The notes under the pieces: model-generated
What the model saw: only the letters and a program-made list of their open reading frames with translations
Database searches by the model: none
What the model was told of the DNA's origin: nothing
Made by a program: the position numbers and the translations under genes
DNA from: Anas platyrhynchos
Lineage: Eukaryota
NCBI RefSeq assembly: GCF_047663525.1
Contig: NC_092617.1
Span: 5,639,550 to 5,703,549 of the forward strand
Direction: 5' to 3'
DNA: 64,000 nucleotides
Shown: in pieces, positions 1-39,153 of the stretch
How positions within the stretch are numbered: position 1 is the first letter of the stretch
Layout of the letters: each line of letters opens with the position of its first letter

Positions 1-560
1 TTTTTGGAGGACACGCCCGCATTTTGGAAGCCACACCCCTTTTTGGGAAGCCACGCCCACTTTGTGAGGACACGCCCCCTTTTGGAGAAGCCACGCCCCT
101 TTTTGGGAGGACAAGCCCATTTTTTTTGGGAAGCCACGCCCCTTTTTGGGAAGCCACGCCCCTTTTTTGGAATCCACGTCCATTTTGGGAAGCCACGCCC
201 CCTTTTGGGAAATCACGTCCATTTTGGGAAGCCACGCCCGCTTTTTTTGGGAAGCCACGCCCATTTTTTGGAATCCACGCCCATTTTTGGAAGATACGCC
301 CCCTTTTTGGGAAGACACCCCCAATTTTGGGAAACCACGCCCCTTTTTTGGAAGACACGCCCCCTTTTGGGGAGGACACGCCCCCTTTTGGGGAAGCCAC
401 GCCACTTTTTGGGAAGCCACTCCCCGTTTTTGGAAGCCACACCCCTTTTTCGGAGGAGAAGACCATTTTGGGGACAAAACACCCATTTTTGGGAAGCCAC
501 GCCCCCTTTTAGGAAGCCACGCCCCCATTTTGGAGGCCACGCCCCCTTATGAATGAATAA
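1..560. repeat. ~20-bp tandem minisatellite TTTTGGGAAGCCACGCCCC (~27 units); each unit carries a CACGCCC (KLF/Sp GT-box-like) core
   Basis: Direct reading. Confidence 0.9.
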
Positions 561-860
561 AGGCTCTTGGCCCCGCCCCCCGTGTCATGACGTCATTGGC
601 CACGCCCCCTTCCCTTAAACCCCGCCCCTTTCCCCTTAACCCCCGCCCATTTCCCTTAAACCCCGCCCCTTTTACCCCAAACCCCGCCCCCTCCCTCCTT
701 CCACCAATCCCCTCCGCCCTCCTCCCGCTCTCAGCCAATCGCGCGCCGCGGGGGGCGTGGCCAGCGCGCGGGGGCGGCGCGGCGGCGGCGGGGGGGGGCT
801 CAGTCGGCGGCGGGACGCCGAAGGGTGCGGATCGGAGGGGTAAAAAGGGGAATTAAGCGG
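540..860. promoter_or_regulatory. CpG-island-like block: six tandem GC boxes (CCCCGCCCC), a CCAAT box (cagccaatcgcgcg ~731) and a G/C-rich core (745..830)
   Basis: Sequence composition and motifs; gene assignment unknown (possibly a divergent neighbour or an upstream non-coding TTC5 exon; a GTAAAA donor-like site at ~838). Confidence 0.35.
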
Positions 861-950
861 AATTAATTAAGGTAATTAATTAATTAAGGGGATTAATTAA
901 GGGGATTAATTAAGGGGATTAATTAAGGGGATTAATTAATTAAGGGGCTC
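860..950. repeat. (GGGGATTAATTAA)n, ~6 units
   Basis: Direct reading. Confidence 0.9.
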
Positions 951-1059
951 GACCCGCGTTCCTCCCGCCGCCCCCAGCAGTAGGCGCCGGGCTTTTAGCG
1001 GCGTCGTAGATTAAAAAATATTTAAAAAATAAAATAAAAAAAAGCGGCTCCAGGCTTCG

Positions 1060-1340
1060 CTCGCGCTGCCCGGAGGTACCGGGGGCAGCGCGGATTTCAC
1101 GGGCTCGTACAAGGGGGTCCTGGGGGGGTCCCCGGGGGTCCTGAGGGGGGGTCCCGGGGGGTCTCTGGGGGGGTCCTGGGGGGGTCCTGGGGGGGTCCCT
1201 GGGGGGGTCTCTGGGGGGGTCCCCGGGGGTCTCTGGGGGGGTCCTGGGGGGGGTCCTGGGGGGGTCTGGGGGGGTCCCGGGGGTCTCTGGGGGGGTCCCT
1301 GGGGGGGTCCTGGGGGTCCTGGGGGGGGGGGGGGGGGGAG
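1060..1340. repeat. GGGGGTCC(C)TGGGGGGGTCTC-type 14-21-bp G-rich minisatellite (yields a spurious Pro-rich minus-strand ORF)
   Basis: Direct reading. Confidence 0.85.
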
Positions 1341-1399
1341 AGGCACAAAATGGCGGCGGCGGACATTTTGTGGAGGGGAATCGTCTTTTTTTGCACTTA

Positions 1400-3300
1400 A
1401 AGGGTTAAATTGTTTGTTTTAAGGTTCGTTTTTTCGTTTTTTTCTCCTTTTTCTGTCAGTTTTTGTGGTTTAATGGGTGTTTTCGAGGTCGGAGCGCTGA
1501 GGTAAGCCTCACACCCCTTCAAACCCTCCTAATTCTCATTTTAAAGCCCAATTTTCCCTTTTAAATTCTATTTTATTTTCTTTAACCACTTAAATTATTT
1601 ATTTTAAACTCTCTTTTTTCATTTTTTTCTCCTTTTCCTGTCAGTTTTTGTGCTTTAATGGCTATTTTCGAACCCGGAGTGCTCAGCTAAGCCTCACACC
1701 CATTCAAATCCTCCTTCTGAACCCTAATTTTCCCTTTTAAATTCCCTTTTTTCCTTCTTTAGCCACTTAAATAATTTATTTTAAACTCTCTTTTTTCATT
1801 TTTTTCTCCTTTTCCTGTCAGTTTTTGTGCTTTAATGGCTATTTTCGAACCCGGAGCGCTCAGCTAAGCCTCACACCCCTTCAAACCCTCCTTCTAAACC
1901 CTAATTTTCCCTTTTAAATTCCCTTTTATCTTCTTTAACCACTTAAATTATTTATTTTAAACTCCCTTTTTTCGTTTTTTTCTTAATTTTCTGTCATTTT
2001 TGGTATTTTAATCTCTATTTCCGACCCCGGAGCGCTCAGGTGAGCCTCGCACCCCTTCAAACCCTCCTCCTTCCCCTTTTAACCCCTAATTTTCTTTTTA
2101 AATTCACTTTTTCGCCTTTTAACTAACTAATTATCCATTTTAACTTCATTTTATTTTATTTTCTTCTCCTTTTTCTGTCAGTTTTTGTGTTTTAATGGCT
2201 ATTTTCGAGCCCGGAACGCTCTCACCCCTTCAACTCCCCCCCCCATTTCCCTTCCTCTTTCCCCTTTTAAGCCCTAATTTTCCCTTTTAAATCAATTTTT
2301 TCCATTTTTAACTAACTTATTATTCTTTTTAATCTTAATTTTTTCGTTTTCTTCTTCATTTTCTGTCACTTTTTGTGTTTTAATGGCTATTTTTGAACCC
2401 AGAACAACACATTTTGTGGAGGCACTCCGGGCACATTTACCACCTCCCCTCCTTTATTATCCCTAAATCTTTTTAAAATCCGCTTTTTTCCACTTAAATT
2501 ATTTATTTTAAACTTCATTTTTTCATTTTTTTCTCAATTTTCTGTCACATTTTGTGTTTTAATGGCTATTTTCGAACCCAGAACACATTTTTGTGGAGGC
2601 GCTCCGGGCACGTTTCCCTCCCTTTTTATCCCTAAATCTTCCTTTTAAAATCCGTTTTTTTTCGACTTAAGCCCTTAAATTATTTATTTTAAACTCTCTT
2701 TTTTGATTTTTTATTCCCTTTTCTGTCACTTTTTGTGTTTTAATGGCTATTTTCGAGCCCGGAACGCTCTCACCCCTTTAACCCCCCCCCCCATTTCCCT
2801 TCCTTTTTCCCCTTTTAACCCCCAAATTTTCCCTTCAAAACCCCATTTTCTTCTTTTTTAAACCCATTTTTTCCCTTTTTCCTTCATTTTTAATTATTTT
2901 CCTTAAATATTAATAACTATTTTTAAGCCCAGAGCGCTCAATAAATCCTCACGCCCCTTTACACCCTCCCCATTTCCCCTCCATTTTTCCCCTTTTTACC
3001 CCCATTTTTCCCCTTTTTACCTCATTTTATCTATTTTTAAACTCCCTTTTTTTCCCTTAAACCCCATTTTTTCCCTTTTTTCCCCTTTTTTCTTACATTT
3101 TTAATTTTTAATCCCTTTCTTCAATCCTAGAGCCCTCACGCCCCCTCAACCCACCTTTTATCCCCATTTTTTACCCCAATTTCCCCTCTTTTTCCCCCTT
3201 TTCACCCCCAATTTTCCCTTTAAACCCCTTTTTTTCCCTCATTTTCCCCCTTTTTTCTTTTATTTGATTAATTTTTGATAAATTCCGATTTCCAAGCCCT
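1400..3300. repeat. ~180-bp satellite, about 10 tandem monomers (conserved core ...CTGTCAGTTTTTGTGCTTTAATGGCTATTTTCGAACCCGGAGCGCTCAG...), diverging towards 3300
   Basis: Monomer restarts at ~1440, 1620, 1800, 1980, 2160, 2340, 2520, 2700. Confidence 0.85.
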
Positions 3301-3785
3301 GAGCACCCAGATGAGGCTCTGCCTGGGTAAATTTCACCATTTTTACGCTTTTTTACAGCTTTTCGTCGCAATAAACACCCCGTGCTTGTGCCAAAAAGCC
3401 CCAAAAGCTGAAATTTGGGGTAAAATCTTTAAAAAATGGTAAAAAATAATAAAAACAGTTTAAAAAAAGAGCAGATTCCCATTTTTCTCAGTCACAGCGC
3501 CACGGGCGAGCTTAAAAGTGGGTTAAAAGCGGGGATTTTTGGTAAATATCTTTTTAAGGGGGGTTAGGAGCAGAAAATGATTAAAAATGGGCAAAAAGGG
3601 TGAAAAATTTTGGGGGATTTTGGGTTTTTTACCTCAGCGCTGAGCTGAGGGGGCTGCTCCCGGCTTTACAGCGCGGTTTGGAGCCCTGGGCTGGGGTTAA
3701 AAGCCAGGGGGAGGAAAAGGATTAAAAATAGGTATTAAATAATGATTAAAAATGTAATAAAATGATAAAAAACGCCGATTTTGCC

Positions 3786-4227
3786 TCATTTTGGGATGTT
3801 TCTTGGGGAGGGGGGGGGGAGGAAGCGCTGAGGCGCCGCCATTTTGAGTGTGGCGCCCAACCCGGCCACAGGGCGGCGCCATTTTGGTTGTGGCATTGCC
3901 CATATATGGAGCGGGGCGGGCGAACGGTGGCTTCCTATTGGTCGGATTTTCGCGGGGCGGTGGAACCCTGCGCTCCTATTGGTCGGATTTTCGCGGGCTA
4001 GGCCGCCATCTTGAGTGTGGCAGCGCCCGCGGGGATGAGGGGGCCGCCATCTTGGGTGCGGCGATGCCCATATATGGAGCGGGGCGGGCGAAGCGTGGCT
4101 TCCTATTGGTCGGTTTTTCGCGCGCTCGGGCGCCATCTTGAGTGCGGCGCCGCCATCTTGGGAAGGTCGCGGGGGCCAAACCGGAAAAGGGGGCAACCGG
4201 AAGTGGGGGGGCGTGGCCACGGCAGCA
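3786..4227 (+). promoter_or_regulatory. TTC5: TTC5 proximal promoter: tandemly duplicated ~168-bp unit carrying two perfect CArG boxes (CCATATATGG at 3900..3909 and 4068..4077), three inverted CCAAT boxes (CCTATTGGTCGG at ~3933, ~3974, ~4100) and about six YY1-like GCCGCCAT(C/T)TTG motifs
   Basis: Motifs read directly; located immediately 5' of the TTC5 ATG at 4228. Confidence 0.6.
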
Positions 4228-4311
4228 ATGGCGGCGGCCGAGGAGGAGGCGGCGGCGGCGGCCGAGGGGGACGGGGAAGGGGGCGACGAGGAGGCCCTGA
4301 GGGCCCTGGAG
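4228..4311 (+). CDS. TTC5: TTC5 coding exon 1 (MAAAEEEAAAAAEGDGEGGDEEALRALE), ATG at 4228, donor GTGGGG
   Basis: Acidic N-terminus matches human MMADEEEEVKPILQKLQE; phase 0 into exon 2. Confidence 0.7.
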
Positions 4312-7300
4312 GTGGGGGGGGGCTGGGGGGAGGGGCTGGTTGCCATGGAGACCGGGGGGGGAGGGGGGGTTGCTATGGGGCCTAAGGGGGGGGGCGAGGC
4401 CTGGTTGCCATGGAAACGGGGCCTAGAGGGGGACAAGGCCTGGTTGCAATGGAGATTTTGGGTGAAAAAGTCCCATTTCTATGGAGATTTGGGGTGTCAG
4501 GGCCTGGTTGCCATGGAAACGGGGCCTAGAGGGTGACAAGGCCTGGTTGCTGTGGAGATTTGGGGTGAAAAAGTCCCATTTCTATGAAGATTTTGGGGTA
4601 AAAAAGCATGGTTTCCATGGAAACGAGGCCTAGAGGGGTACAAAACCCAGTTGCTATGGAGATTTGGGGTGACAAGGCCTGGTTGCCATGGAAACGAGGC
4701 CTAGAGGGTGACAAAACCCGGTTGCCATGGAGATTTGGGGTGAAAAAGCCTGGTTTCCATGGAAACGGGGAGATTTGGAGTGAAAAAGTCCCGTTTCTAT
4801 GGTAATTTGGGGTGAAAAAGCCTGGTTTCCATGGAAACGAGGCCTAAAAGGGGACAAGGCCTGGTTGCTATGGAGATTTGGGGTGAAAAAGTCCCATTTC
4901 TGTGGCAATTTGGGGTGACAGGGCCTGGTTGCCATGGAAACGAGGCCTAGAGGGGACAAGGCCTGGTTGCTATGGAGATTTGGGGTGAAAAAGTCCCATT
5001 TCTATGGCAATTTGGGATGACAGGGCCTGGTTGCCATGGAAACGAGGCCTAGAGGGGGACAAAACCCGGTTGCCATGGAGATTTGGGGTGACAAGGCCCC
5101 GTTTCTATGGAGATTTGGGGGTGACAGGGCCTGGTTGCCATGGAAACGAGGCCTAGAGGGGACAAGGCCTGGTTGCCATGGAGATTTGGGGTGAAAAAGC
5201 CTGGTTTCCATGGAAACGGGGAGATTTGGGGTGAAAAAGTCCCGTTTCTATGGAAATTTGGGGTGACAGGGCCTGGTTGCCATGGAAACGAGGCCTAGAG
5301 GGGGACAAGGCCTGGTTGCTGTGGAGATTTGGGGTGAAAAAGTCCCGTTTCTATGGAGATTTGGGGGTGACAGGGCCTGGTTGCCATGGAAACGGGGTGA
5401 TTTTGGGGTGATTTGGGGTGAAAAAGTCCCGTTTCTATGGAAATTTGGGGGTGACAGGGCCTGGTTGCCATGGAAACGAGGCCTAGAAGGTGACAAGGCC
5501 CCGTTTCCATGGTGATTTGGGGTGAAAAAGTCCCGTTTCTATGGAGATTTGGGGTGTCAGGGTCTGGTTGCCATGGAAACGGGGAGATTTGGGGTGAAAA
5601 AATCCCGTTTCTATGGTAATTTGGGGGTGACAGGGCCTGGTTGCCATGGAAACAAGGCCTAGAGGGTGACAAAACCCGGTTGCTATGGAGATTTGGGGTG
5701 AAAAAGTCCCGTTTCTATGGAGATTTTGGGGTAAAAAAGCATGGTTTCCATGGAAACGAGGCCTAGAGGGGTACAAAACCCAGTTGCTATGGAGATTTGG
5801 GGTGACAAGGCCTGGTTGCCATGGAAACGGGGTGATTTTGGGGTGATTTGGGGTGAAAAAGTCCTGTTTCTATGGAAATTTGGGGTGACAAGGCCTGGTT
5901 GCCATGGAAACGAGGCCTAGAGGGGACAAGGCCTGGTTGCTGTGGAGATTTGGGGTGAAAAAGTCCCGTTTCTATGGAGATTTGGGGGTGACAGGGCCTG
6001 GTTGCCATGGAAACGAGGCCTAGAGCTGACAAGGCCCCGTTTCCATGGTGATTTGGGGTGAAAAAGTCCCATTTCTATGGTAATTTGGGGTGAAAAAGCC
6101 TGGTTTCCATGGAAACGGGGAGATTTGGGGTGAAAAAGTCCCGTTTCCATGGAAATTTGGGGTGACAGGGCCTGGTTGCCATGGAAACGAGGCCTAGAGG
6201 GGACAAGGCCTGGTTGCTGTGGAGATTTGGGGTGAAAAAGTCCCATTTCTATGACAATTTGGGGTGACAGGGCCTGGTTGCCATGGAAACGAGGCCTAGA
6301 GGGGGACAAGGCCTGGTTGCCATGGAGATTTGGGGGTGACAGGGCCTGGTTGCCATGGAAACGGGGTGATTTGGGGTGACAAGGCCCCGTTTCTATGGAG
6401 ATTTGGGGTGAAAAAGTCCCATTTCTATGGAGATTTGGGGTGACAAGGCCTGGTTGCCATGGAAACGCGGCCTAGAGGGGGACAAGGCCTGGTTGCTATG
6501 GAGATTTGGGGTGAAAAAGTCCCGTTTCTATGGAAATTTGGGGTGACAGGGCCTGGTTGCCATGGAAACGGGGCCTAGAGGGTGACAAGGCCCGGTTGCC
6601 ATGGAGATTTGGGGTGAAAAAGCTTGGTTTCCATGGAAACGGGGTGATTTGGGGTGACAAGGCCCCGTTTCTATGGAGATTTGGGGTGAAAAAGTCCCAT
6701 TTCTATGACAATTTGGGGTGACAGGGCCTGGTTGCCATGGAAACGAGGCCTAAAAGGGGACAAGGCCTGGTTGCCATGGAGATTTTGGGGTGACAGGGCC
6801 CGGTTGCCATGGAAACGGGGTGATTTGGGGTGATTTGGGGTGACAAGGCCCCGTTTCTATGGTAATTTGGGGTGTCAGGGCCTGGTTGCCATGGAAACGG
6901 GGCCTAGAGGGGGACAAGGCCTGGTTGCTATGGAGATTTGGGGTGAAAAACTCCCATTTCTATGAAAATTTGGGGTGTCAGGGCCTGGTTGCCATGGAAA
7001 CGGGGCCTAGAAGGGGACAAGGCCTGGTTGCTATGGAGATTTGAGGTGAAAAAGTCCCGTTTCTATGGAAATTTCGGGTGACAAGGCCTGGTTGCCATGG
7101 AAACGAGGCCTAGAGGGGGATGAGGCCTGGTTGCTATGGAGATTTGGGGTGAAAAACTCCCATTTCTATGAAAATTTGGGGTGTCAGGGCCCGGTTGCCA
7201 TGGAAACTAGGCCTAAAAGGGGACGAGGCCTGGTTGCTATGGAGATTTGGGGTGAAAAAGTCCCATTTCTGTGACAATTTGGGGTGACAAGGCCTGGTTG

Positions 7301-10300
7301 CCATGGAAACGGGGCCTAGAGGGGGACAAAACCCGGTTGCCATGGAGATTTGGGGTGAAAAAGCCTGGTTTCCATGGAAACAGGGAGATTTGGGGTGAAA
7401 AAGCCCCATTTCTATGGCAATTTGGGGTGTCAGGGCCCGGTTGCCATGGAAACTAGGCCTAGAGGGGGACAAGGCCTGGTTGCTGTGGAGATTTGGGGTG
7501 AAAAAGTCCCGTTTCTATGGAGATTTTGGGGTGAAAAAGCATGGTTTCCATGGAAACGGGGAGATTTGGGGTGAAAAAGTCCCGTTTCTATGGCAATTTG
7601 GGTTGACAGGGCCTGGTTGCCATGGAAACGAGGCCTAGAAGGTGACAAGGCCCCGTTTCCATGGTGATTTGGGGTGAAAAAGTCCCGTTTCTATGACAAT
7701 TTGGGGTGACAGGGCCTGGTTTCCATGGAAACGGGGAGATTTGGGGTGAAAAAGTCCCATTTCTATGACAATTTGGGGTGACAAGGCCTGGTTGCCATGG
7801 AAACGAGGCCTAGAGGTGACAAGGCCCGGTTGCCATGGAGATTTTGGGGTGAAAAAGCCTGGTTTCCATGGAAACGGGGTGATTTGGGGTGACAAGGACC
7901 CGTTTCTATGGAGATTTGGGGTGAAAAAGTCCCATTTCTATGACAATTTGGGGGTGACAGGGCCTGGTTGCCATGGAAACGGGGTAATTTGGGGTGACAA
8001 AACCCGGTTGCCATGGAGATTTGGGGTGAAAAAGTCCCGTTTCTATGACAATTTGGGGTGAAAAAGCCTGGTTTCCATGGAAACGGGGTGATTTGGGGTG
8101 ACAAAGTCCCGTTTCTATGGAGATTTTGGGGTGACAAGGCCCGGTTGCCATGGTGACGACCCCAAAATCCCTTTTTTTCCCCCCAGGAGATGGTGGCCGA
8201 GCTGTACCGCTTCAAGGACAGCCTGCGGCTGGGTGACAACCCCCAGAAGGGTGACAACGACACCCCCATGGGTGACAACAACCCCACAGGTGACAAAAAT
8301 ACCCCTAAAGGTGACAAAAACACCCCCACGGGTGACAAAAATACCCCTAAGGGTGACAAAAACAACCCCAAGGGTGACAAAAACACCCCCACGGGTGACA
8401 AAAACACCCCTAAGGGTGACAAAAACACCCCAAAAGGTGACAAAAACACCCTAAAAGTGACAAAAACACCCCTAAGGGTGACAAAAACACCCCGAAGGGT
8501 GACAAAAACACCCCCAGGGTGACAAAAACACCCCTAAAGGTGACAAAAATACACTAAGGGTGACAAAAACACCCTAAGGGTGACAAAAATACCCCTAAAG
8601 GTGACAAAAACACCCCCAGGGTGACAAAAATACCTCTAAGGGTGACAAAAATACCCCAAAGGGTGACAAAAATACCCCTAAGGGTGACAAAAACACCCCT
8701 AAAAGTGACAAAAACACCCAAAAAATGACAAAAACACCCTAAAAGTGACAAAAACACCCCAAAAGGTGACAAAAACACCCTAAGGGTGACAAAAAAACCC
8801 AAAGGGTGACAAAAACACCCCTAAGGGTGACAAAAACACCCTAAAAGTGACAAAAATACCCCTAAGGGTGACAAAAACACCCTAAAAGTGACAAAAATAC
8901 CCCTAAGGGTGACAAAAATACCCTAAGGGTGATAAAAACACCCCCAGGGTGACAAAAACACCCCCACAGGTGACAAGAAGACCCCCACGGGTGACAAAAA
9001 CCCCCCAAAAAGTGACACCGACCCCCAAAAAGGTGACGGCGGTCGCCTGGCGGCGCTGGAGGAGGAGATGGAGCGCACGGTGCAGCGCATGGAGGCCGTG
9101 CACGGTGAGCCCCAAAATCACCCAAAACCCCCGAAAAACCCCACCCATAACCCCAAAACCCTGCCAAAAACCCAAAAACCCTGCCCAAAACCCAAAAACC
9201 CCACCCAGAACCCCAAAAACCCTGCCCACAACCCAAAAAACCCCACCCATAACCCCAAAACCCTGCCCATAACCCAAAAAACCCCACCCATAACCCCAAA
9301 AACCCACGCACAACCCCAAAAAACCCGCGCACAACCCAAAAACCCCCACCGAAAACCCAAAAACCCCCACCCATAACCCAAAAAACCCCACCCATAATCC
9401 AAAAACCCCACCCACAACCCAAAAAAACCCGCCCATAACCCCAAAAAAACCCACCCAGAACCCCAAAACTCCGCCCACAACCCAAAAAACCCCGCCCAGA
9501 ACCCAAAAACCCCACCCAAAACCCAAAAAACCCCACCCAGAACCCAAAAACCCCACCCAAAACCCAAAAAACCCCACCCATAACCCAAAAACCCCGCTTA
9601 CAACCCAAAAACCCCCGCCCAAAACCCCAAAACCCTGCCCACAACCCAAAAAACCCCACCCATAACCCAAAAAACCCCACCCAGAACCCAAAAACTCTGC
9701 CCATAACCCAAAAAACCCCGCATACAACCCCAAAAACCCCGCCCACAACCCAAAAAACCCCGCCCAGAACCCAAAATCCTGCCAAAAACCCAAAAACCCC
9801 ACCCACAACCCAAAAAACCCTGCCCACAACCCAAAAACCCCGCCCAGAACCCCAAAAACCCCGCCCACAACCCCAAAAACCCTGCCCACAACCCAAAAAA
9901 CCCCACCCAGAACCCCAAAAACCCCGCCCATAACCTAAAAACCCCGTCCAAAACCCAAAAAAACCCCACCCATAACCCAAAAAACCCCGCCCAGAACCCA
10001 AAAAACCCCGCCCACAACCCAAAAAACCCCACCTACGACCCCAAAAACCCCACCCAAAACCCAAAAACCTGCCCAGAACCCAAAAAATCCCACCCATAAC
10101 CCAAAAAACCCCACCCAAAACCCAAAAAACCCCACCCACAACCCCAAAAAACCCCGCCCAGAACCCCAAAAACCCCGCCCAGAACCCAAAGACCCCACCC
10201 ATAACCCAAAAAACCCCACCCAAAACCCAAAAACCCCGCCCAGAACCCCAAAACCCCACCCAAAACCCAAAAAACCCCGCCCAGAACCCAAAAACCCCGC

Positions 10301-13300
10301 CCAGAACCCAAAAACCCCGCCCAGAACCCAAAAACCCCGCCCAGAACCCAAAAAACCCTGCCAAAAACCCAAAAAAACCCGCCCAGAACCCAAAATCCTG
10401 CCAAAAACCCAAAAACCCCACCCACAACCCCTAAAACCCCGCCTACAACCCCAAAAACCCCACCCATAACCCAAAAACCCCACCCATAACCCAAAAACTC
10501 CACCCATAACCCAAAAAACCCCACCCCAAACCCAAAAACCCCACGCACAACCCAAAAACCCCACCCATAACCCAAAAAACCCTGCCCACAACCCAAAAAA
10601 CCCCACCCAAAACTCAAAAACCCCGCCCAGAACCCCAAAAACCCCGCCCACAACCCAAAAAACTCCTCCCACAACCCAAAAAACCCCGCCCAGAACCCAA
10701 AACCCTGCCAAAAACTCCAAAAGCCCCGCCCACAATGATTAGGCCACGCCTACAAGCCCCAAAGCCCCGCCCACAACCCCCACAAGCCCCGCCCACAAGG
10801 CCCCAAACCACGCCCCGTTAAGGCCACGCCCCGTCTATCCTTGCCTGCCCCTTATTTGGCTCTGGCCACGCCCCCTCCGTCTAAACCACGCCCCCTCCAC
10901 CAAGCCACGCCCCCTCCATTAAACCACACCCCCTCCATTAGGCCCCGCCCCCTCCTTTAAGCCACGCCCCCTTCCCATAAGCCACACCCCTATTAGACCC
11001 CGCCCACCTCCATTAAGCCCCACCCCCCTATTAGACCGCGCCCCCTCCCCCAAGCCCCGCCCCGTCCATTAAGCCCCACCCCTTTAATTAAGCCCCGCCC
11101 CCTCCCTTAAGCCCCGCCCCCTCCCTTTAACCCCACCCTAACCCCACCCCCATATTAAGCCCCGCCCACCTCCCCTAAGCCCCGCCCCCTCCCCTAAGCC
11201 ACGCCCCCTATTAGACCCCACCCACCTCCATTAAGCCCCGCCCACCTCCATTAGGCCACACCCCTCCCTTAAGCCCCGCCCCTCCCTTAAACCCCGCCCA
11301 CCTCCATTAAGCCCCTCCCACCTCCCTTAAGCCCCACCCCCCCCAAGCCCCTCCCCCTTTAAGCCCCGACCCCTCCCCTTAAGCCCCACCCCCAATATTA
11401 AGCCCTGCCCACCTCCATTAAGCCCCGCCCACCTCCATTAAGCCCCGCCCACCTCCCCAAGCCCCGCCCACCTCCATTAAGCCCCACCCCTTCCCTTAAG
11501 CCCCACCCACCTCCTCCAAGCCCCGCCCACCTCCATTAAGCCCCACCCCCAATATTAAGCCCCGCCCACCTCCCCCAAGCCCCGCCCACCCCCTTTTTTG
11601 AAGCCCCGCCCCCTTTTTGAAGCCCCGCCCCCTCAGTGTCCCCCCAGGGCCGGGGCCGGGCGCTGCTGCTGCGGGCGCGGGCGCTGGAGGCGGCCCCGGG
11701 GGGCCGGGGGAGGGCGGAGGCGGCGCTGGGCAGGGCCCTGAAGCTGCAGCCGGGGCTGGCGCCCGCCTGGACCCGCCTGGGGGAGGCCCGGTGGAGCCAC
11801 GGGGACATCACGGGGGCCACGAGGTGCTTCCAGGGGGCGCTGGCGCATGTAAGTAACCCTATAGAGGATCTGGGGGGGATTTTGGGGTTATATCGGGGGT
11901 TATAGGGTCAAAAAGGGGGGTTTAGGGTTGATATTGGGGGTTATGGGGTCAGTATGGGGTGTTATAGGGTCAATATTGGGGGTTATAGGGTCAGTATCAG
12001 GCGTTATGGGGTCAATTTTGGGGTTATAGGGTCATTATTGGGGGATATGGGGTCAAGATCAGGGGTTATAGGATCGATATCAGGGGTTATAGGGTCAATA
12101 TTGGGGGTTATGGGGTCAATATTGGGGGTTATAGGGTCAATATCAGGGGTTATAGGGTCGATTTTGGGGTTATAGGGTCGATATTGGGGCTTATAGGGTC
12201 AATATTGGGGGTTATGGGGTTGATTTAAGGGTTATAGGGTCAATACCAGGGGTTAAAGGATCACTTTTGGGGTTATAGGGTCAATATTGGGGGTTATAGA
12301 ATCAATATCAGGGGTTATAGGGTCCGTATGGGGTGTTATAGGGTTGATTTAGTGGTTATAGGGTCAATATTGGGGGTTATAGGGGGATTTGGGGGGGATT
12401 TGGGGGGTTATAGGGTCGATATCAGGGGTTATAGGGTCAATAGTGGGGGTTATAGGGTCAATATCAGGGGTTATGGGGTCAATATTGGGGTTATAGGGTC
12501 AGGATCAGGGGTTATGGGGTCGATTTCAGGGGTTATAGGGTCAAAAAGAGGGGGTTTAGGGTTGATTTTGGGGTTATAGGGTCGATATCAGGGGTTATAG
12601 GGTCAATATTGGGGGTTATGGGGTCAATATTGGGGGTTATGGGGTCAAAAAGAGGGGTTTTAGGGTCGATTTTGGGGTTATAGGGTCGATATTGGGGGTT
12701 ATAGGGTCAGTATCAGGGGTTATGGGGTCACTATGGGGAGTTAAAGGGTCGATTTTGGGGTTATAGGGTCAATATCAGGGGTTGTAGGGTCGATATCAGG
12801 GGTAATGGGGTCAAAAAGAGGGGTTTTAGGGTCAGTTTAGGGGTTATAGGGTCAATTTAGGGGTTATAGGGTCGATTTAGGGGTTATGGGGTCAGTATGG
12901 GGGTTATGGGGTGGATTTAGGGGATTTGGGGCGATTTGGGGTCAATTTGGGGTGGATGTAGGGGATTTTGGGGGGATTTGGTGTGGATTTGGGGTCTTTT
13001 GGGGTGCATTTGGGGGATTTGGGGCTATTTAGGGTGGATTCGGGGTGGATTTCGGGGATTTAGGGTCATTTGGGGTGGATTCGGGGCGGATTCGGGGTCA
13101 TTTGGGGTAGATTTGGGGGATTTGGGGTCTTTCGGGGTGGATTTGGGGGATTTGGGGTCAATTTGGGATTGATGGGTGGATTTAGGGGATTTGGGGTGGA
13201 TTTGGGGGATTTGGGGTCATTTGGGAGATTTGGGGGGGATTTGGGGTGGATTTGGGGCAGATTCAGGGTGAATTTGGGGGATTTAGGGTCAATTTGGGCT

Positions 13301-23899: not shown

Positions 23900-25100
23900 C
23901 GCCCCCTGCCCTGGGGTGGGCGGGGCTTGGGAAAAGGGGGCGGGGCCGCATGGGGGCCGCCATCTTGGGGGTGGCGGCGGGAGGTGGGGGCGGCCATGTT
24001 GGGTGTGGCAAAGGGGGAGTGGGGGCCGCCATCTTGGAGGGGGTGTGGCCCATGGGGGGGGCGGGGCTGAGGGGGTGGGGCCAAGGGCGTGGAGGGCATG
24101 GGGGGGTGGGGCCTGGTCACGTGAGGGCGGCCATCTTGGGTGGGCGTGTCTTAATGGAGGCGGCCATCTTGGGTGTGGCCATCACCATGGGGACCCCGCC
24201 ATGTTGGGTGTGGCCCCCACACACGTAGGCAGCCATCTTGGGTGTGGCCCAGTGGCATATGAAGGCAGCCATATTGGGTGTGGCACCCCCCCTAACAGTC
24301 AGCCATCTTGGGTGTGGCCAACCCCTTAGAAGTCCACCATGTTGGGTGTGGCACCCCAAAAAGCAGTCAGCCATGTTGGGTGTGGCCCAGTGACACAAGG
24401 GCAGCCATCTTGGGTGTGCCAGCCCCCTTCAGAGCCCGCCATCTTGGGTGTGGCCCAGTCACAAAAAGGCAGCCATGTTGGGTGGGGCCAAGGTCATGAA
24501 GGCAGCCATCTTGGGTGTGGCCACTGTCATGGAGGCGGCCATCTTGGGTGTGGCACACCCCCTCGGAGCCCGCCATGTTGGGTGTGACACCCCCCAAGCA
24601 GTCAGCCATCTTGGGTGTGGCCAAGTCCCATGAAGGCGGCCATCTTGGGTGTGGCAATCACCATAGGGACCCCACCATCTTGGGTGTGGCCACCCCACCA
24701 TTGGGCAGCCATCTTGGGTGGGCGTGTCCTAATGGAGGCAGCCATCTTGGGTGTGGCATCCCCCCAAAACAGGCAGCCATCTTGGGTGGGTGTGTCCCCA
24801 CTGCCGTCGGCCATCTTGGGTGTGGCCCCGTCACATCAAGGCGGCCATGTTGGGTGTGGCAACCCCCTGGGGGTGGCCATCTTGGGTGTGGCAATCACCA
24901 TGGAGGCCGCCATCTTGGGCGTGGCCAACCCCGAAGCAGTCAGCCATCTTGGGCGTGGCCTACATCACGGGGGCGGCCATGTTGGGTGTGGCCCAGTCCC
25001 ATGGGGGCGGCCATCTTGGGCGTGGCCAACCCTGGGGGCGGCCATCTTGGGCGTGTCGCCGTCCCCCCGGGGGCGGCCATGTTGGGCGTGGCGCCCCGGT
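23900..25100. promoter_or_regulatory. ~1.2 kb tandem array (~40-bp unit, about 30 copies) of GGC(C/A)GCCAT(C/G)TTGGGTGTGGC; each unit carries the YY1 core consensus (GCCATnTT / AAGATGGC); sits between the convergent 3' ends of TTC5 and HNRNPC
   Basis: Direct reading; motif matches the YY1 core consensus. Confidence 0.55.
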
Positions 25101-25116
25101 TACAAACCATCCGTCC

Positions 25117-25122
25117 TTTAAT
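25117..25122 (-). terminator. HNRNPC: ATTAAA poly(A) signal candidate on the minus strand, ~235 nt downstream of the HNRNPC stop codon
   Basis: Hexamer (plus-strand TTTAAT). Confidence 0.35.
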
Positions 25123-25129
25123 CGTTAAC

Positions 25130-25235
25130 GAGGTATCAAAATTAAAAGGGGGCGGGGCCAACGGCGGGGAGGGGGCGGGGCCAAACAGGGAGGGGGCGGG
25201 GCCACAGGAGGAGGGGGCGGGGCTAAATTGGGGGG
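25130..25235. promoter_or_regulatory. Four tandem GC boxes (GGGGCGGGGCC) with ~25-bp spacing, inside the presumed HNRNPC 3' UTR region
   Basis: Direct reading. Confidence 0.4.
25141..25146 (+). terminator. TTC5: ATTAAA poly(A) signal candidate on the plus strand (possible TTC5 3' end; would imply a ~1.3 kb 3' UTR spanning the YY1 array)
   Basis: Hexamer only; no AATAAA elsewhere in the GC-rich 23855..25140 interval. Confidence 0.3.
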
Positions 25236-25352
25236 GGGGGAGGGGCACAACACCACGAACACGGGGAGGGGGGGGAGGGGAGGGGGATGGGGGGGGGGGT
25301 CCCGGCCTTCACCGTTCTGCGCTCGCGATTTTTGGGGTGAAAAACGGCGATT

Positions 25353-39153
<13,801 letters not shown>

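What the first reader, a model, noticed from the sequence alone, without database searches (positions are those of the whole stretch)
3786..4227. TTC5 promoter is a tandem duplication carrying paired CArG boxes, CCAAT boxes and YY1-like sites
A ~168-bp unit is duplicated (units centred ~3830-4000 and ~4000-4170). Each unit contains a perfect SRF CArG box CCATATATGG (3900..3909 and 4068..4077), an inverted CCAAT box (CCTATTGGTCGG) and GCCGCCAT(C/T)TTG YY1-like motifs, ending about 50 nt before the ATG. Paired CArG plus YY1 (a known SRF competitor at CArG elements) suggests serum- or immediate-early-type regulation, which is not expected for TTC5.
Basis: seen in the sequence. Interest (0 to 1): 0.5.

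Follow-up and report, generated by a model that had tools for sequence, protein, structure and literature searches.

The report
Duplicated YY1-site promoter of duck TTC5
The block is the CpG-island promoter just upstream of the mallard TTC5 gene: an old bird-wide cluster of YY1-type sites that was tandemly duplicated in the duck lineage, while its eye-catching SRF (CArG) boxes are a duck-only novelty with no support yet for serum-type regulation.

Summary
Window 3826-4168 is a head-to-tail repeat directly upstream of the TTC5 start codon (4229). The gene is essentially identical to Anas platyrhynchos TTC5. The unit is better described as about 127 bp: YY1 site, YY1 site, CArG plus GC box, inverted CCAAT. 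There are two full copies (80.6% identical), an extra 41-bp CCAAT copy, and a truncated third copy. That gives 6 YY1 consensus sites, 3 CCAAT boxes and 2 CArG boxes.

Same-strand YY1 sites at -80 to -210, and an ETS plus GC box at -20 to -31, recur upstream of TTC5 in crane, king vulture, seriema and pigeon. So this is a conserved proximal promoter; its TSS is not mapped.

The CArG box is absent from all eight other species examined. It sits in the slot where other birds have a further YY1 site. CArG-type decamers are not enriched in the window. SRF or immediate-early control is therefore possible but unsupported.

The upstream CpG island (600-838) belongs to a conserved SNORA79 host gene.

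Unexpectedly, a same-orientation array of about 32 YY1 sites lies just 3' of TTC5, and all seven birds examined have one.

Verdict: an ordinary promoter of a known kind with a lineage-specific duplication.

The parts
3826..3957 (+). Repeat unit 1 (A-A-B-C): two YY1-type modules, CArG plus GC box, inverted CCAAT module
   Evidence: 80.6% identical to unit 2
3958..3998 (+). Extra 41-bp copy of the CCAAT module (C2).
   Evidence: TRF period 41 over 3911-3997; C1 vs C2 83%
3999..4125 (+). Repeat unit 2 (A-A-B-C)
4126..4168 (+). Truncated unit 3: two YY1-type modules 20 nt apart
   Evidence: family D8 (3952-4027 vs 4079-4154, spacing 127, 82%)
3835..3854 (+). YY1-type module A1, GCCGCCATTTTGAGTGTGGC (YY1 consensus plus GT/CACCC box)
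3875..3894 (+). Module A2, GGCGCCATTTTGGTTGTGGC. Seriema has a near-identical 20-mer, GCCGCCATTTTGGTTGTGGC
4002..4021 (+). Module A3, GCCGCCATCTTGAGTGTGGC
4043..4062 (+). Module A4, GCCGCCATCTTGGGTGCGGC
4129..4148 (+). Module A5, GGCGCCATCTTGAGTGCGGC
4149..4168 (+). Module A6, GCCGCCATCTTGGGAAGGTC
3900..3909 (.). CArG box 1, CCATATATGG (palindromic), followed by GC box GGGGCGGG at 3913-3920
4068..4077 (.). CArG box 2, CCATATATGG, followed by GC box at 4081-4088. The 28-nt block TGCCCATATATGGAGCGGGGCGGGCGAA is identical in both units
3934..3945 (-). Inverted CCAAT box, copy 1 (CCTATTGGTCGG)
3975..3986 (-). Inverted CCAAT box, copy 2
4102..4113 (-). Inverted CCAAT box, copy 3
4180..4218 (+). Core-promoter block: ACCGGAAAAG, ACCGGAAGTG (ETS consensus, 4196-4205) and GC box GGGCGTGGCC (4209-4218). 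ETS at about -25..-31 recurs in crane, pigeon, zebra finch and RNA contig L003. A GC box at about -20 was scored in duck, pigeon and zebra finch
4229..4312 (+). TTC5 coding exon 1 (MAAAEEE...ALRALE), with GT donor at 4313
600..838 (+). Separate upstream CpG island with CCAAT boxes and a conserved GGTAA donor. This is the promoter and exon 1 of the SNORA79 host gene, not part of the duplication
950..1112 (+). SNORA79-like H/ACA snoRNA in the intron after that exon. Rfam reported the match for 950-1039; the 3' end at about 1112 is inferred from alignment A3
   Evidence: Rfam RF00600, 44.1 bits, E = 2.5e-5, below gathering 55. Orthologous hits in crane (42.5 bits) and ostrich (28.6 bits). Alignment A3
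23951..25092 (+). 3' flank minisatellite: about 32 units of 34 bp, each carrying the same + oriented YY1-type 17-mer as the promoter modules. It lies between the TTC5 stop codon and the HNRNPC 3' end

Best explanation
Window 3826-4228 is the proximal, TATA-less CpG-island promoter of mallard TTC5.

Its ancestral neognath core has three parts. The first is a short same-orientation cluster of consensus YY1 sites (GCCGCCATnTTG, spaced about 23 nt, often extended by a GT/CACCC box). The second is an inverted CCAAT (NF-Y-type) box with GC boxes. The third is an ETS site plus GC box 20-31 nt before the ATG.

In the duck lineage a cassette of about 127 bp (YY1, YY1, CArG/GC box, CCAAT) was copied head to tail, presumably by slippage or unequal exchange in a very repeat-prone region. 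Together with a 41-bp internal duplication and a truncated third copy, this gives 6 YY1, 3 CCAAT and 2 CArG motifs.

The CArG box is most likely a derived version of the third YY1 site. CCATTTTGG becomes CCATATATGG by one insertion and one substitution. It happens to match the SRF consensus and was then duplicated with its unit.

The expected behaviour is constitutive, housekeeping-type initiation between or just downstream of the YY1 and ETS sites, giving a short 5' UTR. The duplication simply adds more of the same sites.

What is shown: the sequence anatomy, the gene identity, the CpG island, conservation of the YY1, CCAAT and ETS elements, and non-conservation of the CArG box. What is inferred: factor binding, TSS position, the origin of the CArG box from a YY1 site, and the functional effect of the duplication.
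For: - Gene identity and exon 1.
- Repeat anatomy.
- CpG island of GC 0.70 and o/e 0.98, flanked by 35-42% GC DNA.
- + strand cgCCATntt sites relative to the ATG: duck -392, -352, -225, -184, -98, -78; crane -192, -164, -141; vulture -208, -160; seriema -139, -115; pigeon -132, -86. None is on the minus strand in that interval. Each count exceeds Markov simulations, P <= 0.0006.
- Near-identical 17-20-mers occur across species, for example duck GCCATTTTGAGTGTGGCG and the same string in pigeon.
- ETS CGGAAG lies at -25..-31 in duck, crane, pigeon, zebra finch and RNA contig L003. A GC box at -20 was scored in duck, pigeon and zebra finch.
- An inverted CCAAT box is present in crane, pigeon and L003.
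- The CArG box sits 22-24 nt after the second YY1 module, where seriema, crane and pigeon have another GCCGCCATnTTGG.
- The locus is full of minisatellites.
- Clusters of YY1 sites near the TSS that keep their presence, but not their number or spacing, between species are a described class (PMC2665242).
- The YY1 motif is over-represented just downstream of human TSSs (PMC8384218, citing Xi et al. 2007).
Against: - No TSS, expression or binding data for duck could be reached.
- An upstream promoter (600-838) exists on the same strand. A zebra-finch RefSeq model splices from its homologue into TTC5 exon 1, so some TTC5 transcripts may start upstream.
- RNA contig L003 extends 269 nt upstream of the ATG, through the CCAAT and YY1 sites.
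- The zebra finch and ostrich proximal regions lack + strand YY1 sites, so the cluster is not universal in birds.
- The 28-nt CArG plus GC-box block is identical in both units, although the units are only 80.6% identical overall. This hints at constraint or gene conversion on that block.
- Descent of the CArG box from a YY1 site rests on position and a short similarity only.
Confidence: 0.62

Rival explanations
1. First reader's reading. The paired CArG boxes make duck TTC5 an SRF target with serum, immediate-early or MRTF-type inducibility. The neighbouring YY1 sites would act as competitors of SRF.
For: - CCATATATGG is a perfect CC(A/T)6GG decamer, present twice.
- The 28-nt CArG plus GC-box block is 28/28 identical between units that are otherwise about 80% identical. 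Rough chance is 0.806^28 = 0.002 per position, about 0.05 after allowing for all positions.
- YY1 and SRF are documented to bind overlapping CArG elements (PMC7732823).
Against: - No homologous CArG box occurs in any of eight other TTC5 upstream regions.
- CArG-type decamers are not enriched in the window: 21 against 28.9 expected.
- The two copies are one duplicated event.
- There is no Ets/TCF half-site next to either box.
- The boxes lie 150-330 nt from the ATG, inside a YY1/NF-Y/Sp1 array typical of constitutive promoters.
- No paper in the searchable library links TTC5 transcription to SRF.
Confidence: 0.1
2. The block is not the main TSS region. TTC5 is transcribed from the upstream CpG island (600-838), which became free when the CCNB1IP1 coding exons disappeared from this interval in neognaths. 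The block would then be intronic or part of a long 5' leader.
For: - The upstream island, its GGTAA donor and an intronic SNORA79 are conserved from ostrich to duck.
- CCNB1IP1 coding exons are 92% conserved between ostrich and gharial, yet they are not found between that island and TTC5 in duck, crane, vulture, seriema or pigeon. The host transcript therefore needs downstream exons.
- The zebra-finch TTC5 model uses exons at 5001-5112 and 5306-5371, then an acceptor at about 6336 just upstream of exon 1.
- L003 carries 269 nt upstream of the ATG.
Against: - The block is itself a CpG island with conserved YY1, ETS and GC-box elements at fixed distances from the ATG.
- The candidate acceptor AG at 4224-4225 has a 30% pyrimidine tract and no conserved counterpart.
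- L003 is colinear with promoter-like DNA, so there is no intron within 269 nt of the ATG in that species.
- The zebra-finch model was forced upstream because the canonical ATG is out of frame in that assembly, and its first 'exon' is the snoRNA itself.
- AATAAA signals at 2940, 3370, 3448 and 3756 could terminate the host transcript before TTC5.
Confidence: 0.13
3. The promoter YY1 cluster and the same-orientation YY1 array 3' of TTC5 work as a pair. They could form a YY1-mediated gene loop, an insulated mini-domain, or a termination barrier between the convergent TTC5 and HNRNPC genes. The duck duplication would strengthen the 5' partner.
For: - The same 17-mer (GCCATCTTGGGTGTGGC) occurs at both ends in duck: 5-6 copies at the 5' end and about 28-32 copies at the 3' end, all on the + strand.
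- A + oriented YY1-type array occupies the gap downstream of TTC5 in crane, vulture, seriema, pigeon, zebra finch and ostrich, although the surrounding DNA is unalignable.
- Gharial and gibbon have none.
Against: - There is no binding or contact data.
- Ostrich and zebra finch have the 3' array but no + strand YY1 cluster at the promoter.
- Many other motif-bearing minisatellites fill this locus, so arrays may simply arise easily here.
- The 3' array is preceded by CCAAT, Sp1 and CRE motifs and may instead be an orphan promoter.
Confidence: 0.08
4. The extra copies are functionally inert. A neutral minisatellite-type expansion happened to include the promoter's motifs, and one unit would do the same job.
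For: - The region is saturated with tandem repeats of 20-180 bp.
- Copy number of the YY1 sites varies freely among birds, from 0 to 6.
- Spacers between motifs have diverged to about 73% in the A-spacer-A part.
Against: - The motif cores are intact in all copies. All six copies keep CGCCAT, all three CCAAT modules keep TCCTATTGGTCGG, and both CArG/GC blocks are identical, while the spacers diverged.
- The A-part versus B+C-part identity differs (72.7% against 88.9%), but only modestly (Fisher P = 0.026).
Confidence: 0.07

Closest known systems
Clustered YY1-binding sites near transcription start sites (Kang, Chung & Kim 2009, ECMFinder; PMC2665242). Examples: Peg3 first intron, Akt1s1, Psmb5, Rsrc2
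   Same: Three or more cgCCATntt motifs lie within 500 bp, close to a gene start. The presence and orientation of the cluster are conserved between species, while copy number, spacing and surrounding sequence are not.
   Different: The described cases are mammalian and several are imprinting control regions. Here the cluster is avian and sits upstream of the ATG of a housekeeping-type gene. It is extended by a GT/CACCC box in several species, and in duck it has been enlarged by duplication of a whole 127-bp cassette. YY1 binding is not shown.
TATA-less CpG-island promoters built from YY1, NF-Y, Sp1/KLF and ETS sites, with the YY1 motif peaking just downstream of the TSS (Xi et al. 2007, as cited in PMC8384218)
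   Same: It is a CpG island over exon 1 with no TATA box. It has an inverted CCAAT box, GC boxes, an ETS consensus ACCGGAAGTG close to the ATG, and a strand-specific YY1 consensus.
   Different: The TSS is unmapped, so the position of the YY1 sites relative to it is unknown. Six YY1 sites spread over 330 bp is unusually many.
Serum response elements of immediate-early and actin-type genes (c-fos, Egr1; SRF with TCF or MRTF), including YY1/SRF overlap at CArG boxes (PMC7732823)
   Same: There is a perfect CC(A/T)6GG decamer, in two copies, with YY1-type sites nearby.
   Different: There is no flanking Ets/TCF site and no conservation in any other species examined. The YY1 sites do not overlap the CArG boxes but lie at least 22 nt away. 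No evidence of inducibility exists.
Intron-encoded SNORA79 in the CCNB1IP1 host gene next to TTC5 in mammals (gene order RPPH1, SNORA79B, CCNB1IP1, TTC5 in sheep; PMC8355708)
   Same: The upstream island at 600-838 and the snoRNA-like element at 950-1112 lie directly upstream of TTC5 on the same strand. Both are conserved in all birds examined.
   Different: The Rfam score is below the gathering threshold (44.1 against 55). The duck copy carries an A-rich insertion. CCNB1IP1 coding exons are missing from this interval in the five neognaths checked.

Membership tests
Serum response element (SRF CArG box of immediate-early type) | CC(A/T)6GG core | tested here: met
   CCATATATGG at 3900-3909 and 4068-4077. 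However, such decamers are not enriched in the window: 21 against 28.9 expected.
Serum response element (SRF CArG box of immediate-early type) | Adjacent Ets/TCF half-site (GGA[A/T]) for ternary-complex factors, as in the c-fos SRE | tested here: not met
   The flanks are GGCATTGC-CCATATATGG-AGCGGGGCGGG in both copies. There is no GGAA or GGAT within 10 nt.
Serum response element (SRF CArG box of immediate-early type) | Conservation of the CArG box in orthologous promoters | tested here: not met
   It is absent at the homologous place in crane, king vulture, seriema, pigeon, zebra finch, ostrich, gharial and gibbon.
Serum response element (SRF CArG box of immediate-early type) | SRF occupancy and serum- or MRTF-dependent induction | not testable with these tools
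   No duck ChIP or expression data were available. No paper links TTC5 to SRF.
Clustered YY1-binding sites (Kang et al. 2009 criterion) | At least 3 cgCCATntt motifs (up to 1 mismatch in the lower-case bases) within 500 bp | tested here: met
   Six lie in 330 bp, all on the + strand. Simulation gives 0.07 expected for the 290-nt interval, P < 0.0002.
Clustered YY1-binding sites (Kang et al. 2009 criterion) | Location within 5 kb of the gene's TSS | tested here: inconclusive
   The cluster lies 78-392 nt upstream of the ATG. The TSS itself is not mapped.
Clustered YY1-binding sites (Kang et al. 2009 criterion) | A cluster present at the homologous place in other species | tested here: met
   Crane has 3. 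Vulture, seriema and pigeon have 2 each, all + strand at -86..-208. Only crane reaches the formal threshold of 3. Zebra finch and ostrich have none.
Clustered YY1-binding sites (Kang et al. 2009 criterion) | YY1 bound in vivo | not testable with these tools
   No avian YY1 ChIP data were accessible.
TATA-less CpG-island promoter | CpG island (GC > 0.55, CpG o/e > 0.6, > 200 bp) overlapping the first exon | tested here: met
   Window 3801-4320 has GC 0.70, CpG o/e 0.98 and 56 CpGs. Exon 1 is at 4229-4312.
TATA-less CpG-island promoter | Conserved proximal factor sites at a fixed distance from the gene start | tested here: met
   ETS CGGAAG lies at -25..-31 in duck, crane, pigeon, zebra finch and L003. 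A GC box at -20 was scored in duck, pigeon and zebra finch.
TATA-less CpG-island promoter | Mapped transcription start sites inside the island | not testable with these tools
   The duck RefSeq proteins P0001 and P0121 are not on record in the contig index. The only 5' RNA evidence comes from another bird: L003 with 269 nt and L004 with 12 nt of leader.
Tandem duplication / minisatellite | Head-to-tail copies in register | tested here: met
   Families D7 and D8 and TRF period 41. Alignment A1. Unit identities are 80.6% overall, 72.7% for the A part and 88.9% for the B+C part.
SNORA79 (Rfam RF00600), for the upstream island only | Score at or above the Rfam gathering threshold | tested here: not met
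   Scores are 44.1 bits (duck), 42.5 (crane) and 28.6 (ostrich), against a gathering score of 55. The matches cover the full model length. The crane alignment shows an H-box-like AGAGAA and a terminal ACA. The matches are syntenic across species. The snoRNA gene lies next to CCNB1IP1 and TTC5 in mammals.

The most novel reading that the evidence does not exclude
In birds, TTC5 is bracketed by same-orientation arrays of consensus YY1 sites. One is a small cluster in the promoter, enlarged in duck by the duplication. The other is a minisatellite of 3-32 or more sites in the gap between the convergent TTC5 and HNRNPC genes. On this reading the two arrays act together, as YY1-bound architectural elements, a gene loop, or a boundary or termination barrier. 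The 3' array is conserved in position and orientation from ostrich to passerines although nothing around it aligns.
Probability: 0.1. Interest if true: 0.6.

Novelty: new member of a known kind. Interest (0 to 1): 0.3.

Why it matters
As found, this is a textbook-style CpG-island promoter, and its duplication is a lineage-specific curiosity.

It is useful as a clean natural example of two things. First, tandem duplication multiplies factor sites in a promoter. Second, a consensus SRF site can arise from a neighbouring motif without any ancestral SRF role. That is a caution against reading regulation from single motif matches.

If the CArG boxes did bind SRF, duck TTC5 (the tubulin-autoregulation factor) would be tied to the actin-sensing MRTF/SRF pathway. 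That would be interesting, but it has no support here.

The more promising lead is the bird-wide YY1-site array downstream of TTC5. It is a conserved-by-position, unalignable regulatory candidate of the kind described so far mainly at mammalian imprinted loci.

Tried and rejected
1. Fetching the duck locus from another assembly failed. RefSeq isoforms X2 (P0001) and X1 (P0121) are not on record in the contig index. No second duck haplotype or annotated 5' UTR could be compared.

2. No other anseriform or galliform TTC5 locus was reachable. The only close relative (P0002, Logan contig L010) is a partial transcript without the 5' end and with 19 nt after the stop codon.

3. Two metagenome scans with the CArG/GC-box block and the CCAAT module found nothing.

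4. tblastx of neighbouring-gene regions against the window was swamped by repeat noise. A restricted repeat gave a clean negative for CCNB1IP1 exons.

5. Rfam at gathering threshold found nothing in the window or in six loci. Only the E-value mode revealed the SNORA79-like element.

6. Literature searches for TTC5 with SRF, and for YY1-site arrays in birds, found nothing relevant. Xi et al. 2007 is not held.

7. Rejected: RPPH1 as the identity of the conserved upstream element, because there is no RNase P match.

8. Rejected: the 3' array as the promoter of RABGGTA. That gene follows TTC5 only in the pigeon scaffold. In the other neognaths examined a convergent RRM gene follows; in duck it is identified as HNRNPC by its C-terminus and conserved 3' end.

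9. The bacterial promoter/terminator scanner, protein-structure tools and the phage, plasmid and E. coli collections were not used. They do not bear on a vertebrate promoter.
Full report
**1. What the window is**

The window is avian, GC-rich and saturated with tandem repeats. A recalled human TTC5 sequence was used only as a lead. By tblastn it found a chain of exons on the + strand from about 8.2 to 23.8 kb. The concatenated translation matches solved TTC5 structures (6t59, E = 7.5e-91). Its best database relative is Anas platyrhynchos TTC5 isoform X2.

Mapping that protein back shows about 100% identity in every exon. This includes exon 1 (ATG 4229 to 4312, MAAAEEEAAAAAEGDGEGGDEEALRALE, donor GT at 4313). 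The window is therefore mallard or domestic duck, or a very close relative. The finding lies directly upstream of the TTC5 start codon.

**2. Check of the observation**

- CArG CCATATATGG at 3900-3909 and 4068-4077.
- Inverted CCAAT CCTATTGGTCGG at 3934, 3975 and 4102.
- G[CG]CGCCAT[CT]TTG at 3835, 3875, 4002, 4043, 4129 and 4149, all on the + strand.
- ACCGGAAGTG at 4196 and a GC box at 4209.

The repeat is real. Segment 3870-3954 matches 4038-4122 at 88% with 168-nt spacing. Segment 3952-4027 matches 4079-4154 at 82% with 127-nt spacing. A 41-bp period spans 3911-3997.

Together these show a unit of about 127 bp with the order A-A-B-C. A is a YY1-type module, B is the CArG plus GC box, and C is the CCAAT module. 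The layout is:
- unit 1, 3832-3957;
- an extra 41-bp C copy, 3958-3998;
- unit 2, 3999-4125;
- a truncated unit 3 with two A modules, 4126-4168.

Units 1 and 2 are 80.6% identical. The A-spacer-A half is 72.7% identical and the B+C half 88.9% (Fisher P = 0.026). The 28-nt CArG/GC-box block is identical in both units. At this divergence the copies are old, so this is not an assembly artefact.

Chance does not explain the YY1-type sites. There are 27 matches with up to 1 mismatch in the window, against 0.92 expected. It easily explains a CArG decamer: 21 in the window against 28.9 expected. The 'pair' is one event copied by the duplication.

**3. Is it the promoter?**

Window 3801-4320 is a CpG island (GC 0.70, CpG o/e 0.98) set in 35-42% GC, CpG-poor DNA.

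I fetched TTC5 loci of ostrich, whooping crane, king vulture, seriema, pigeon, zebra finch, gharial and gibbon. I also fetched RNA-derived contigs of another bird.

Using the published cluster pattern cgCCATntt (PMC2665242), + strand sites lie at these positions relative to the ATG:

| Species | Positions |
|---|---|
| Duck | -392, -352, -225, -184, -98, -78 |
| Crane | -192, -164, -141 |
| Vulture | -208, -160 |
| Seriema | -139, -115 |
| Pigeon | -132, -86 |

None is on the minus strand in that interval. Each count is far above Markov simulations (P <= 0.0006).

The similarity extends beyond the YY1 core. Duck GCCATTTTGAGTGTGGCG equals the pigeon sequence. Duck GGCGCCATTTTGGTTGTGGC compares with seriema GCCGCCATTTTGGTTGTGGC. 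So the module is a 17-20-mer made of a YY1 consensus plus a GT/CACCC box.

An inverted CCAAT box accompanies the sites in crane, pigeon and RNA contig L003. L003 reads TTCCTATTGGCT, against duck CTTCCTATTGGTC.

An ETS core CGGAAG lies at -25..-31 in duck, crane, pigeon, zebra finch and L003. A GC box at about -20 was scored in duck, pigeon and zebra finch.

Gharial and gibbon have none of this. Ostrich has only GC boxes. Zebra finch has CCAAT, ETS and GC boxes, and a minus-strand YY1 motif over the ATG.

The block is thus a conserved neognath proximal promoter by every sequence criterion. Its TSS could not be mapped.

**4. The CArG boxes**

None of the eight other species has a CArG box at the homologous place.

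In the multiple alignment, the duck GCCCATATATGG lies 22-24 nt after the second YY1 module. That is the register where seriema, crane and pigeon carry a further GCCGCCATnTTGG. The ancestral sites are spaced about 23 nt. CCATTTTGG differs from CCATATATGG by one inserted A and one T-to-A change.

I infer that the CArG box is a derived YY1 site. This rests on position and a short similarity only.

Neither box has an Ets/TCF half-site beside it. No paper in the library connects TTC5 transcription with SRF. Overlap of YY1 and SRF on some CArG boxes is well documented (PMC7732823).

The perfect identity of the 28-nt CArG/GC block between otherwise diverged units is weak evidence for constraint or gene conversion (roughly P about 0.05). 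So SRF input is not excluded. I give it about 0.1.

**5.

The upstream island (600-838; GC 0.62, o/e 0.99) has CCAAT boxes and a donor, GGTAA. The donor is conserved in vulture, seriema, ostrich, crane and zebra finch.

It is followed by an element at 950-1112 that is 81-85% conserved in all birds. This element matches SNORA79 over the full model length. Scores are 44.1 bits for duck, 42.5 for crane and 28.6 for ostrich. All are below the gathering score of 55.

In sheep the gene order is RPPH1, SNORA79B, CCNB1IP1, TTC5 (PMC8355708). In ostrich and gharial a CCNB1IP1-type RING gene lies between this element and TTC5. Its exons are 92% identical between ostrich and gharial. They are not found in that interval in duck, crane, vulture, seriema or pigeon.

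So the island has its own reason to exist, as a snoRNA host promoter. The host transcript still needs downstream exons.

A zebra-finch RefSeq TTC5 model does join host exons to an acceptor just upstream of TTC5 exon 1. That model starts inside the snoRNA, and it exists because the canonical ATG is out of frame in that assembly.

In duck the proposed acceptor at 4225 has a 30% pyrimidine tract and no conserved counterpart. AATAAA signals at 2940-3756 could end the host transcript first. I rate 'block is intronic, TSS upstream' at about 0.13.

**6. Context and an unexpected finding**

The same + oriented YY1-type 17-mer forms a minisatellite of about 32 units of 34 bp at 23951-25092. This begins 100 nt after the TTC5 stop codon. 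It is preceded by a CRE palindrome and GC boxes. It ends exactly where the conserved 3' end of the convergent HNRNPC gene begins (C-terminus [18 protein letters not shown] on the minus strand).

Same-orientation arrays occupy the homologous gap in six other birds. The surrounding DNA does not align.

| Species | Copies and period |
|---|---|
| Crane | about 10 copies |
| Vulture | about 5 copies |
| Seriema | about 3 copies |
| Pigeon | 4 copies |
| Zebra finch | about 30 copies, 29-bp period |
| Ostrich | 21 copies, 36-bp period |

Gharial and gibbon lack such an array.

This fits the known class of clustered YY1 sites that are conserved in presence but not in spacing (PMC2665242). It is the most interesting lead here. 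Possible roles are an orphan promoter, a boundary or termination element between convergent genes, or a partner of the promoter cluster. None of these is tested.

The locus is also packed with other motif-bearing satellites:
- 42 perfect X-box-like palindromes in intron 1;
- a GCCACGCCCC array at 1-548;
- CCCCGCCCA arrays in intron 2.

So tandem amplification of short GC-rich motifs is evidently easy in this DNA. That is the simplest origin for the promoter duplication.

**7. Verdict**

It is a TTC5 promoter rich in YY1 and CCAAT sites. The SRF or immediate-early reading is not supported.

By kind, it is a new member of the known class of YY1-cluster CpG-island promoters, with a lineage-specific tandem duplication. 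Interest is modest, at 0.3. The avian 3' YY1 array is the item most worth following up.

Noticed in passing
window 23951-25092 (also L002 14013-14370, L005 16745-16900, L006 13640-13740, L009 10880-11030, L011 17742-18655, L001 28030-28933): A minisatellite of about 32 x 34 bp whose units each carry a + oriented YY1 consensus (GCCATCTTGGGTGTGGC). It fills the gap between the TTC5 stop codon and the 3' end of convergent HNRNPC. A same-orientation array sits in the homologous gap in all seven birds examined, including ostrich. Gharial and gibbon have none.
   Followed up: partly
window 600-1112: A conserved CpG-island promoter with a GGTAA donor (about 838), followed by a SNORA79-like H/ACA snoRNA (950-1112). 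Rfam gives 44.1 bits, below gathering 55, and the duck copy has an A-rich insertion. The element is syntenic in six birds. It looks like the 5' part of the CCNB1IP1/SNORA79 host gene.
   Followed up: partly
window 1-4228; L002 7463-10000; L005 6693-10000; L006 7498-10000; L009 1-5000: CCNB1IP1 (HEI10) coding exons are 92% identical between ostrich and gharial. They are not detectable between SNORA79 and TTC5 in duck, crane, vulture, seriema or pigeon. The gene may be lost or relocated in neognath birds. I did not check whether it exists elsewhere in their genomes.
   Followed up: partly
window 4398-8153 (TTC5 intron 1): Almost the whole intron is a satellite of about 103 bp. It contains 42 perfect palindromes GTT[GT]CCATGG[AC]AAC, which fit the RFX X-box consensus. 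Counting both strands gives 84 matches against 0.01 expected.
   Followed up: no
window 8247-9017: A 21-bp minisatellite (about 37 copies) encoding GDKNTPK-type heptads inside 'exon 2' of TTC5. Reading straight through from 8187 hits a stop at 8520, and the heptads recur in all three frames. RefSeq isoforms X1 and X2 retain only 3-4 repeats and differ by exactly one repeat. Most of the array must therefore be spliced out, or it differs in copy number between assemblies.
   Followed up: partly
window 1-548; 9130-10807; 10865-11634; 1405-2765: Further tandem arrays built on promoter-type motifs: 27 x 20 bp with GCCACGCCCC (KLF/Sp-like), 81 x 21 bp with CCCCGCCCA, and 40 x 19-20 bp with GCCCCGCCCC...ATTAA. 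There is also an AT-rich 177-181-bp repeat whose units carry a polypyrimidine-CAG acceptor and, in some copies, a GTAAG/GTGAG donor.
   Followed up: no
window 25095-39130, minus strand: HNRNPC lies convergent to TTC5. Its last coding exon ends ...[18 protein letters not shown] at about 25375. An ATTAAA on the minus strand at 25117 places its poly(A) site at the edge of the YY1 array. No AATAAA or ATTAAA occurs on the + strand between the TTC5 stop (23851) and 25141. The duck TTC5 3' UTR may therefore run through the whole array.
   Followed up: partly
window 1340-1370: An inverted repeat CACAAAATG-GCGGCGGCGG-ACATTTTGTG containing a minus-oriented GCCGCCATTTTG. It lies just after a (GGGGGTCCT)n repeat, downstream of the snoRNA.
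   Followed up: no
L011 5001-6520 (zebra finch): The RefSeq TTC5 model (582 aa) starts inside SNORA79 and translates through it. The canonical ATG at 6421 (GAAGATGGCGGCG, a minus-strand YY1 motif over the start codon) is out of frame with the end of exon 1 in this assembly. This is probably a homopolymer error or a real frameshift that forced an artificial N-terminal extension.
   Followed up: partly
L001 26250-27900 (ostrich): The ostrich has a different satellite of about 100 bp (GGACGTGGGGACATCGGGGACGTGGACGTGAGGGACAT...) directly after the TTC5 poly(A) signal, ahead of its YY1 array. It also has a minus-oriented array of CAAGATGGCGGCCGCCATGG units at 8259-9551, inside the CCNB1IP1 gene.
   Followed up: no
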